Source: Cyanobacteria bacterium auto_48_18
GTDB taxonomy: Bacteria > Cyanobacteriota > Vampirovibrionia > Obscuribacterales > Obscuribacteraceae
DNA: 64,000 nt
Direction: 5' to 3'
Assembly (NCBI GenBank): GCA_036170915.1
Contig: JAVHQC010000036.1
Span: 1 to 64,000, forward strand
Shown here: piece by piece, positions 28,402 through 34,039 of the stretch
Layout: each line of letters opens with the position of its first letter
Numbering within the stretch: position 1 is the first letter of the stretch
The notes under the pieces: generated by a model
What the model was told of the DNA's origin: nothing
Seen by the model: the letters and a program-made list of their open reading frames with translations, nothing else
Database searches by the model: none
Made by a program: the position numbers and the translations under genes

Positions 28402-30325
28402 ATCGCGGTAGGGAGGAGGGTTGCCCCTCCCCACCCCGCACAGATCCGGACTAGCGGCTTTCCCGCATCCGGCTCCTACCTTAGGTCTTGACGCGAAAGC
28501 GCTCCAGCGGATAGGGATGAGTAATATGACCCCATGGTAGCCAGCGGTCAGACATTGCGTACATTCGCTCCCACGTGAAGTGGTCATTCTGACTTCGGTC
28601 GCGTAGCGCTTTCAGCCAGAAACCCACCACTCGAAATCGGAACGTGTTCAACGCCCTCAGGTTTGTCGGTACTCCATAATAGTTGAAGTGTCCCGTCACC
28701 ACTGATTTTAGCCACCGACACTGATGGAGTAATGGGAAATGTTTGCGGCTTTGAAGTTCGAGTTTTATCTCAGTTATCTTTGCTCGCAGCCTCTTCTTTT
28801 CCGTCTGTCGAAGTACCACAAACATGCTATTTTTCTTGGCCCCACATATGTGAGTGAATCCCAAGAAGTTGAATGTTTCTGGCTTTCCGCCGCCACCACG
28901 CTTTTTGAAGTTGTCGATTGCGAATCGACCAAATTCAATTAATCGAGTTTTGTCGGGGTGCAGTTCAAGTTTGAACTTTTGAAGTCTCTCCTTGAGTTCA
29001 CGCAAGAACCGCTCGGCATCCGATTTATATTGGAACGTCACAATGAAGTCGTCGGCATACCGCACCATTAGAATTTCTCCGCGTGCGTTCGTCCGACGCC
29101 ATTTGTGCGCCCAGAGGTCAAACACATAGTGGAGGTAGATATTCGCAAGTAATGGGCTAACACTGCCCCCTTGTACGGTCCCGACCTCGCTATGAGTCAC
29201 CTTCCCGCCCTCAAGCACGCCGGCCTTCAACCATTTCTGGATGAGGTGCACAACGCGCTTGTCAGCTATTCGGTGCTCGATGAATTTGATTAGCCATTCG
29301 TGGTCTAAGGCATCAAAGAAGCCATGAATGTCTGCATCGAGCACCCAGCTCACCTTCTTCGTCTGAAGTCCGACGTAGAGGGCATCCAGCGCATTGTGCT
29401 GGCTGCGTCCTGGTCGGAACCCATATGAAAATCCGAGAAAGTCTGTTTCATAGATGGCATTCAAAACCAGCACCATTGCCTTTTGGACTATCTTGTCTTC
29501 TAAGGTTGGTACGCCGAGCGGTCGCTGCCGACCATCAGGCTTGGCAATGTATACCCTCTTAACAGGCTTGGCTCGGTATGCTCCTCGCTTGAGCCTTTCG
29601 GAGAGGTCTATCAGATTCTCTTCTAGGCACTCTCCGTAGTGCTCCCATGTCTCATTATCGACCCCGGCGGCGGCCTCTCGATTGATGCCGAGATATGCCT
29701 CCCACAAAGTTTCGATGTTGTAGACGTGGTGCAGAAGCGCGGTGAACCGCATCTTCTTGTTTCCTTTTGCTGCTTTGCGTATCGTCTCCAGCTCATTTTG
29801 CACACTATCCCGGCGCTGTGTCCGGAGCATGTTTTGCTCAGACGAATTCCCTTTGGTCAGGTCCCTTCCCTCCATTTGCTCCGCGGCCGTCGAATTAGGT
29901 CCGACTTTGTTCGCAAACTTCGCAGGTACTACGGACCTGTCTGACTTCCCATCCTCGTGCATCACCGTCGTACTCCGTTAGCAGTTTCCCGGTGCGGACC
30001 AGAATTGCCAGCTCTGGCCGAGTATGGGATCTCCCGTTTTCCGCTCAAGAGGTTTCCATGCGTGCAAGTGGTCTCAGACCACGTGGGGCTCAACGACAAC
30101 TCGCGAAAGCGCTGTCGTTGATGTTGCCTTCCGCACATTATCACTGCGTCGGCGTCCCAGACTAAATTTTTCGAGGCTCAATACACTGCCCGCATGTGCC
30201 CCTGTCAACACTTCGTGCATACCTCGCGGTATTGGTCACGCATGACTCGGGGTCGTTGTGATTCGCTATTTCTTCAACGTGCAACTCTTACATTTGCTGC
30301 CTCCTGCCGACTTTTAACGGCGTCC
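28402..30325 (-). mobile_element. Complete group II intron (class E-like, En-minus), inserted in a dif-like site
   Basis: Minus strand: domain V GAGCCGGATGCGGGAAAGCCGCTAGTCCGGATCT (28442-28475); domain VI with bulged A ending CCTACCGCGAT (3' end 28402); EBS1 loop GTGATAATG (30136-30144) complementary to exon IBS1 CATTATC (30326-30332), which places the 5' end at 30325 (GGACG). Confidence 0.9.
28481..29965 (-). CDS. ltrA: Group II intron reverse transcriptase/maturase without endonuclease domain
   Basis: RT0 AAAGVD, RPLGVPTLEDK, SYGFRPGR, DADI, GTVQGGSVSPLLANIYLH, YADD, FNFLGF and maturase X domain. The first ~45 codons overlap RNA domains II-III, so the real start may be later. Confidence 0.95.
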   Translation of the reverse strand: MMHEDGKSDRSVVPAKFANKVGPNSTAAEQMEGRDLTKGNSSEQNMLRTQRRDSVQNELETIRKAAKGNKKMRFTALLHHVYNIETLWEAYLGINREAAAGVDNETWEHYGECLEENLIDLSERLKRGAYRAKPVKRVYIAKPDGRQRPLGVPTLEDKIVQKAMVLVLNAIYETDFLGFSYGFRPGRSQHNALDALYVGLQTKKVSWVLDADIHGFFDALDHEWLIKFIEHRIADKRVVHLIQKWLKAGVLEGGKVTHSEVGTVQGGSVSPLLANIYLHYVFDLWAHKWRRTNARGEILMVRYADDFIVTFQYKSDAERFLRELKERLQKFKLELHPDKTRLIEFGRFAIDNFKKRGGGGKPETFNFLGFTHICGAKKNSMFVVLRQTEKKRLRAKITEIKLELQSRKHFPLLHQCRWLKSVVTGHFNYYGVPTNLRALNTFRFRVVGFWLKALRDRSQNDHFTWERMYAMSDRWLPWGHITHPYPLERFRVKT

Positions 30326-30347
30326 GATAATGTATATTATGTTTCAT
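30320..30347 (+). other. dif-like XerC/XerD recombination site
   Basis: GCGTCCGATAA-TGTATA-TTATGTTTCAT versus E. coli dif GGTGCGCATAA-TGTATA-TTATGTTAAAT: 17 contiguous identical nt (ATAATGTATATTATGTT), located between convergent genes. Confidence 0.75.
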
Positions 30348-33955: not shown

Positions 33956-34039
33956 GCCCTTGTGTCGGAACTGGTATACGAGACGCACTTAAAATGCGTT
34001 GCCCGTAAGGGATTGAGGGTTCGACTCCCTCCGAGGGCA
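33956..34039 (+). tRNA. trnL: tRNA-Leu(UAA), intronless, CCA not encoded
   Basis: Acceptor stem GCCCTTG/CGAGGGC; anticodon arm ACGCA-CTTAAAA-TGCGT; long variable arm; GAGGG-TTCGACT-CCCTC T-arm; discriminator A. Confidence 0.95.

What the first reader, a model, noticed from the sequence alone, without database searches (positions are those of the whole stretch)
30210..30330. Non-canonical intron 5' end (GGACG) with compensatory epsilon-prime change rebuilds the XerC arm
Seen: the intron starts GGACGCCG rather than GUGCG. The domain I loop that usually reads AAGC reads AAGU here (minus strand 30213-30210), so intron nt 3-4 (AC) can still form the epsilon/epsilon-prime pair with GU. That covariation argues the odd end is functional rather than decayed. 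Intron nt 2-4 (GAC) are identical to nt 2-4 of the displaced 3' exon (AGAC). The left arm after insertion (GCGTCCGATAA) therefore keeps 8 of 11 bases of the original (CGGTCTGATAA), whereas a canonical end would give GCGCACGATAA. Inference: the ribozyme terminus has been reshaped to mimic its target at DNA level, so a working dif survives insertion. Splicing alone could not repair a DNA-level site. IBS1 is also retained, which could allow tandem re-insertion.
Basis: partly seen in the sequence, partly recalled or inferred. Interest (0 to 1): 0.85.

Follow-up and report, generated by a model that had tools for sequence, protein, structure and literature searches.

The report
Intron end rebuilds chromosome-separation site
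A mobile self-splicing intron has landed inside the single short DNA site that this bacterium appears to use to separate its chromosome copies, and the intron's unusual first letters supply the bases it displaced, so the site probably still works.

Summary
Observation confirmed; interpretation partly supported. A 1,924-nt group II intron (30325-28402, minus strand) sits in the XerC arm of the chromosomal dif. The motif is unique in the genome, present in 96 of 107 genomes of the order, and at the GC-skew switch. The intron starts GGACG; its epsilon-prime loop is AAGU. All 14 related 5' junctions found are dif-like.

The A3/AAGU pair is real but not dif-specific: 78 of 110 readable AAGU introns from metagenomes have A3 and non-dif targets. 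The dif-linked change is G2. It supplies XerC-arm position 5, which is C in 89 of 89 native sites; canonical GUGCG would put A there. GGACG occurred only at dif-like targets (11 of 11). All 8 intron-derived chromosomal difs keep G2, including decayed relics that are the only canonical dif in 3 assemblies. This suggests the rebuilt arm works.

Selection on G2 rests on about one origin; Xer activity and splicing are untested. No tandem copies were seen. No paper found; the scan noted this target type before in another genome (e1-7161894).

The parts
28402..30325 (-). Group II intron, 1,924 nt, IIB-type, no endonuclease domain
   Evidence: Rfam RF02005 and RF00029; boundaries from the empty allele in G006 and from other insertions
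30321..30325 (-). Non-canonical 5' end GGACG. On the + strand its nt 1-6 form the outer 6 bp of the XerC arm (nt 2 = arm C5, nt 3 = arm T4)
30210..30213 (-). Epsilon-prime loop AAGU, pairs with A3-C4
   Evidence: alignment; covariation table
30136..30142 (-). EBS1 (GAUAAUG)
   Evidence: 7 of 7 pairs with IBS1; changes with the target in G015 and G024:C168
30326..30332 (-). IBS1: inner XerC arm plus 2 nt of spacer
30159..30167 (-). Position of EBS2 in this lineage; here only a weak possible match to the inner XerD arm
   Evidence: own-exon pairing in the top 10% for 19 of 46 non-dif clusters but 0 of 10 dif-clade rows
30076..30076 (-). EBS3 (U), pairs with 3' exon nt 1 (A)
   Evidence: pairs in 9 of 9 full-length introns where the script found both ends
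30320..30347 (+). Filled chromosomal dif: XerC arm 30320-30330 (outer 6 bp from the intron), spacer 30331-30336, XerD arm 30337-30347
   Evidence: unique in G000; motif in 96 of 107 genomes of the order; at the GC-skew switch in single-contig G003
28396..28401 (+). Displaced outer 6 bp of the original XerC arm (start of the 3' exon)
28481..29965 (-). Intact RT/maturase ORF, 494 aa, YADD motif
   Evidence: TIGR04416 above cut-off, 369.8 vs 300; only RVT_1 in Pfam, no HNH
28402..28477 (-). Domains V-VI; the domain V bulge reads UA instead of the usual AC

Best explanation
This is a recently mobile, endonuclease-less group IIB intron from a small clade that homes into dif and dif-like Xer sites of Obscuribacterales. 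It reverse-splices 5 nt into the XerC arm; EBS1 reads the inner XerC arm and spacer end, and EBS3 reads the A at +1. How it reads the XerD arm is open. Insertion pushes the outer 6 bp of the XerC arm 1.9 kb away, and the intron's first 6 nt replace them in the DNA. The lineage tolerates free variation at nt 1-2 and a recurrent G3/AAGC to A3/AAGU swap. In the dif clade the variants that rebuild a usable arm prevailed: G2 gives the invariant C5 and A3 gives the majority T4. Insertion into the one essential chromosomal dif is then close to harmless, and the intron gains a conserved, single-copy, non-coding haven. Shown: target, boundaries, covariation, consensus fit, clade distribution. Inferred: splicing at 30325, Xer activity of the filled site, and selection as the cause of G2.
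For: (1) Site identity: unique in G000; at the + to - skew switch in G003 and within the switch zone of C36; two XerC/D-like recombinases in G000. (2) 14 of 14 clade 5' junctions carry a XerD-like arm 11-12 nt upstream, although they were found by intron sequence, not by target. (3) Arm position 5 is C in 89 of 89 native best sites; position 4 is T 70, G 18, C 1, A 0 (hand count). A direct search for non-C5 sites hit 1 of 107 genomes, a secondary site. (4) GGACG in 11 of 11 cases at dif-like targets, and in 0 of 108 readable non-dif metagenome loci and 0 of 6 Acidobacteriota matches. (5) All 4 intact and 4 relic chromosomal insertions have G2. The GUACG copies in G015, which break C5, sit at secondary sites while that genome's canonical dif is intact. 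(6) In G074, G077 and G105 a decayed intron stub supplies the arm of the only canonical dif in the assembly. Stub match: 1 of 200, 1 of 200 and 0 of 200 shuffles reach the score. (7) The intron is 99.95% identical between G000 and G005 while their flanks are 73-80% identical, so the GGACG form is mobile.
Against: G2 arose about once, so selection cannot be separated statistically from luck. The 4 intact chromosomal copies are one near-identical element, and G027/G105 look like one event. One non-dif, apparently decayed intron also has G2 (GGGCG, L148). Three clade copies have GUACG or GGGCG and still inserted into dif-like sites. The relics drifted at arm position 4 (T to G in G077, T to C in G027/G105), and keeping G2 in 3 relic events is not significant alone. 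G027 has a second dif-like copy. The assemblies are incomplete (G000 86%), so another dif could be missing. The order of changes is unsettled: GGGCG is nested on the RNA tree and unresolved on the protein tree.
Confidence: 0.7

Rival explanations
1. Lucky fit, no selection. The intron targets dif, but its 5' end drifted to GGACG within the freedom this lineage has at nt 1-3. The XerC outer arm is tolerant enough, or dif dispensable enough, that any start would do.
For: 5' ends in the lineage include GUGCG, GAGCG, AAGCG, UAGCG, GUACG, GAACG, AAACG and AAUCG. A3/AAGU arose several times away from dif. The XerC arm is the more variable arm in all phyla (PMC3025954, passages). G2 has about one origin.
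Against: C5 is invariant in 89 of 89 native sites, which argues the arm is not tolerant there. G2 is rare outside the clade (1 of 108 non-dif loci). All 8 chromosomal insertions have it, and the U2 copies are off the chromosomal site.
Confidence: 0.2
2. Mechanistic copying. Intron nt 2-4 were overwritten from the target (AGAC) by template switching or gene conversion at the 5' junction during integration, so the likeness is a by-product of homing.
For: Intron nt 2-4 equal 3' exon nt 2-4. In G103 and G015 the 3' exon AGACGC matches GGACGC at nt 2-6.
Against: Nt 1 stays G although every genomic target has A. The start does not track the local target: copies in AGACCG, AGACCA and AGACGC sites all read GGACGC, and G015 reads GUACG in AGACGC/AGACGG sites. 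A3 needs the distant loop change. Copying could still be the source of the mutation that selection then kept.
Confidence: 0.07
3. The filled site is inactive; these hosts tolerate a damaged dif or use an unassembled second copy.
For: Incomplete genomes; G027 has two canonical-looking copies; no assay exists.
Against: The filled site differs from the native consensus at no constrained position. XerD arm and spacer are perfect in all 8 filled or relic chromosomal sites, even where the intron has decayed.
Confidence: 0.08

Closest known systems
Group IIC-attC introns of integrons, and terminator-targeting IIC introns (review PMC4424553, passages)
   Same: A group II intron without endonuclease that inserts into a recombinase site in non-coding DNA.
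   Different: This one is IIB-type with a 7-bp EBS1 and targets dif. The review lists only homing sites, terminators and attC as bacterial targets. Rebuilding of the site by the intron's end is not described in the passages read.
IS1202-family 'dif site hunters' such as ISAjo2 and ISAba71 (PMC10132070, abstract and passages)
   Same: Targets both chromosomal dif and pdif/secondary sites on the XerC side, in a fixed orientation.
   Different: Those are DDE transposons that insert 5 bp outside the XerC arm and leave it whole. This retroelement inserts inside the arm and supplies the displaced bases.
IMEXs (CTX-phi, TLC and kin), and phages or ICEs that restore their target through attP (recalled, no call)
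   Same: Integration at dif leaves a working dif built partly from element DNA.
   Different: They use site-specific recombination with an att copy. Here the replacement bases are also the catalytic 5' end of a ribozyme, and entry is by reverse splicing.
En-less bacterial group II introns, classes D/E/F and g1-g4 (PMC3552965, parts 1-3 of 4 read)
   Same: RT-maturase without En, IIB fold, EBS1/EBS3 recognition.
   Different: Exact class not tested; no reference proteins were in the trees. Start GGACG and domain V bulge UA.

Membership tests
Group II intron | Domain I-IV and V-VI ribozyme structure | tested here: met
   RF02005 171.5 bits and RF00029 41.3 bits, both above gathering score
Group II intron | RT/maturase in domain IV | tested here: met
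   TIGR04416 over cut-off
Group II intron | 5' GUGYG and 3' AY ends | tested here: not met
   3' AU met; 5' is GGACG. Non-GUGYG starts are common in this lineage, so this marks a variant, not exclusion
Group II intron | Epsilon/epsilon-prime pairing | tested here: met
   A3 with AAGU in 33 clusters, never with AAGC (0 of 20)
Group IIB | EBS1-IBS1 and EBS3-IBS3 pairing | tested here: met
   7 of 7 pairs here; EBS3 pairs in 9 of 9
Group IIB | EBS2-IBS2 pairing | tested here: inconclusive
   Evident in non-dif relatives (19 of 46 in the top 10%), not in the dif clade (0 of 10); AT-rich duplexes are penalised by the energy ranking
Group II intron | Self-splicing at the predicted junction | not testable with these tools
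   Only contigs were available; no spliced joint seen in 4 runs laid
IEP class E or F/g1-g4 | Placement among reference IEPs | not tested
   No reference proteins in the trees
Chromosomal dif | 28 bp, two 11-bp arms around a 6-bp spacer, conserved XerD arm | tested here: met
Chromosomal dif | Single copy at the replication terminus | tested here: met
   One strong site in G000; skew turns from + to - between 5.86 and 5.90 Mb in G003, site at 5.864 Mb (20 sampled windows)
Chromosomal dif | Host encodes XerC and XerD | tested here: inconclusive
   Two full-length recombinases match the XerD model strongly (E 1.8e-90; 1.5e-50 + 1e-38) but under its cut-off; which is XerC was not determined
Chromosomal dif | Recombined by XerCD/FtsK | not testable with these tools
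   needs an assay
Group IIC-attC introns | Class C RNA, insertion at an attC hairpin | tested here: not met
   7-bp EBS1 and a dif target

The most novel reading that the evidence does not exclude
A ribozyme's catalytic 5' end has been co-opted as half of a host recombinase binding site. The intron rebuilds a working dif at DNA level, has done so repeatedly, leaves its first six bases as the host's permanent XerC arm after it decays, and may ride Xer recombination between chromosomal dif and pdif-like modules. Hints for the last step: the hybrid site in L002 and paired dif-like sites in G103, G127 and G025.
Probability: 0.4. Interest if true: 0.85.

Novelty: new variant of a known kind. Interest (0 to 1): 0.72.

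Why it matters
Introns make insertions harmless by splicing, which cannot repair a site that works as DNA. This clade appears to solve that by carrying the missing bases in its own end, giving one stretch two jobs: ribozyme start and XerC binding site. It adds a target type to the three listed for bacterial group II introns. It yields a one-base prediction (G2 versus U2) testable in a plasmid assay. It shows that the GUGYG start is far more plastic than usually stated. As a by-product it identifies dif across an order within a phylum where earlier prediction failed (PMC3025954, passages).

Tried and rejected
Covariation as proof of mimicry: rejected, A3/AAGU is common off dif.

Tandem re-insertion: none in 6 full-length copies; EBS3 is U. 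One RNA-library contig continues into a 3' flank starting with G, so G at +1 may be tolerated; its EBS3 base was not shown.

EBS2 reading of the XerD arm: not demonstrated. A first script parsed only 11 rows; the second gave 0 of 10.

Single-sequence folding of the 5' region: uninformative, z -1.04. Promoter and terminator scan: at chance level.

Viral contigs: 0 hits for two patterns. Phylum sample: 0 of 400 other genomes carry the clade motif. Plasmid search: hits at about 57% or less in the rows shown; class not resolved.

Possible relics at G025:C49 and G028:C228: not significant, 23 and 89 of 200 shuffles; G025 was counted as native.

Read laying: contigs only. X1 may be the source of the window. 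X2 and X9 carry the intron at another host's dif. No spliced joint.

Dropped rows: the clustering used 115 loci; 20 mis-parsed loci were excluded beforehand. All 121 metagenome loci were then recounted: 89 automatic, 32 read by eye, of which 11 lack a 5' end, leaving 110. An early call of L217 as G2 was wrong; it is GAACG.

Literature: no paper on group II introns in dif from searches; none on GUACG starts from searches (listings only). Supplement tables of PMC3552965 had no hit for GTACG, GGACG or GUACG. Subscription papers and bioRxiv supplements were not visible and may bear on novelty.

Full report
What is there. The minus strand holds a complete group II intron from 30325 to 28402 (1,924 nt): Rfam domain I-IV and V-VI matches and an intact 494-aa RT/maturase without an endonuclease domain. 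It starts GGACGCCG, ends GCGAT, and the loop that the Rfam consensus writes AAGC reads AAGU at 30213-30210. Removing it gives CGGTCTGATAA-TGTATA-TTATGTTTCAT, which stands uninterrupted in relative G006 between flanks 84-86% identical to this window. The boundaries are therefore exact. The best protein matches are titled Obscuribacterales.

The site is the chromosomal dif. The core was found in 33 of 36 family genomes and 96 of 107 genomes of the order, mostly once. In single-contig G003, GC skew is positive in all 11 sampled windows from 2.7 Mb up to the site at 5.864 Mb and negative in the three from 5.90 Mb on. On the window's own contig the cumulative skew plateaus at about 20-61 kb and then falls. 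A matrix from 24 native sites scores the filled site 34.9 and the next genomic site 11.0. G000 encodes two Xer-like recombinases. In Acinetobacter dif tables the same arm position 5 is also C (PMC10132070, passages).

A dif-homing clade. Searching with intron sequence gave 14 intact 5' junctions, duplicates counted once: G000, G005, G009, G024 x3, G103, G025, G127, G015 x2, L002, L149, L209. All have a XerD-like arm 11-12 nt upstream. Four are the canonical chromosomal site and ten are dif-like sites with other spacers. Eleven start GGACG with AAGU, two GUACG with AAGU, one GGGCG with AAGC. The clade is monophyletic (100/100 on the RNA tree built without nt 1-5; 100/99 on the protein tree). 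Its likely sister is a non-dif GUGCG/AAGCG pair that includes a second intron in this genome (support 90/84). EBS1 follows the target in G015 and G024:C168. EBS3 is U, and all 7 genomic 3' junctions start with A. The G000 and G005 introns are 99.95% identical while their flanks are 73-80% identical. Two further DNA runs carry it at another host's dif. The GGACG form is thus recently mobile.

Testing the covariation. Of 110 with a readable 5' end, 80 have A3 (GUACG 65, GAACG 11, GGACG 2, AAACG 1, AUACG 1), 25 have G3 and 5 have U3 (21 of the 110 read by eye). Only the two GGACG loci have dif-like exons. Across 65 clusters A3 goes with AAGU 33 times and with AAGC never; G3 goes with AAGC 20 and AAGU 12 times. 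In a sample not chosen by loop type, 6 matches in 401 Acidobacteriota genomes were 5 GUGCG/AAGC and 1 GUACG/AAGU. But the swap is a recurrent feature of the lineage and says nothing about dif by itself.

Which base matters. Intron nt 1-6 become arm positions 6-1. In 89 native best sites position 5 is always C, and position 4 is T 70, G 18, C 1, A 0 (hand count). A direct search for a non-C at position 5 hit 1 of 107 genomes, at a secondary site. A GUGCG start would give C4-A5, GUACG T4-A5, GGGCG C4-C5, and GGACG T4-C5, the consensus. G2 is the dif-linked change; outside the clade it was seen once in 108 non-dif loci (GGGCG, L148). All four intact chromosomal insertions are GGACG. The two GUACG copies lie at secondary sites in a genome whose canonical dif is intact.

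Relics. In G074, G077 and G027/G105 the canonical dif's outer arm is the stub of a decayed intron, about 20-130 nt long (1, 1 and 0 of 200 shuffles reach the score). In G074, G077 and G105 no other canonical dif was found. All keep G2/C5 with a perfect spacer and XerD arm; position 4 drifted in two of three events. This is the best indirect sign that an intron-built arm can serve long term. It is limited by incomplete assemblies and small numbers.

Mechanism, shown and inferred. Shown: target, insertion point, EBS1 and EBS3 pairing, covariation, consensus fit, distribution. Inferred from known IIB biology (PMC4424553, passages): reverse splicing into DNA and replication-primed cDNA synthesis. 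Inferred here: that the filled site recombines, and that host-level selection fixed G2. The recognition of the XerD arm is unexplained; an EBS2 is evident in non-dif relatives but weak in this clade. Tandem re-insertion has no support.

Comparison and novelty. The review read lists homing sites, terminators and attC as bacterial intron targets. IS1202-family elements hunt dif but insert 5 bp outside it. IMEXs restore dif by recombination (recalled). Searches found no report of introns in dif or of such 5' ends, within a library that lacks most subscription papers.

Verdict: a real, apparently undescribed variant of group II intron; the mimicry reading is likely (about 0.7) but hinges on G2, not on the epsilon pair.

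Noticed in passing
G000:C33:87086-89000 (L127): A second full group II intron in this genome (63% protein identity), GUGCG/AAGC, inserted just after a hairpin; likely sister group of the dif clade.
   Followed up: partly
L282 (G103), L292 (G127), L287 (G025), L130 (G024:C43): Secondary dif-like sites with other spacers occur in pairs (inverted 6 kb apart in G103, direct about 1.85 kb apart in G127); one lies beside a PIN/Phd toxin-antitoxin pair. This resembles pdif modules in Obscuribacterales.
   Followed up: partly
L002:170-2160: Hybrid filled site: the 3' flank matches the chromosomal dif flank of the window's genus, but spacer and XerD arm are foreign, as after Xer-mediated integration. 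The record title names a different phylum, so it may be misbinned.
   Followed up: partly
window 28452-28453 (-): Domain V bulge is UA in GGACG copies and AA in G015; AC in 30 of 63 distinct domain V sequences parsed.
   Followed up: partly
L137, L138, L141, L144 and kin: A large GUACG/AAGU lineage inserts at one conserved motif that looks like an IS end (IS3 likeness recalled, untested) with clear EBS2 pairing; another GUACG lineage targets a short CGCTTA motif.
   Followed up: no
loci: 5' ends in this intron lineage are very plastic: AAGCG, UAGCG, GAGCG, GAACG, AAACG, AAUCG.
   Followed up: partly
L299:5039-5233 (G025:C49): The 3' end of another group II intron lies 2.1 kb from that genome's dif on the XerD side.
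   Followed up: no
window 33956-34039 (+): tRNA gene (Rfam), 3.6 kb from dif.
   Followed up: no
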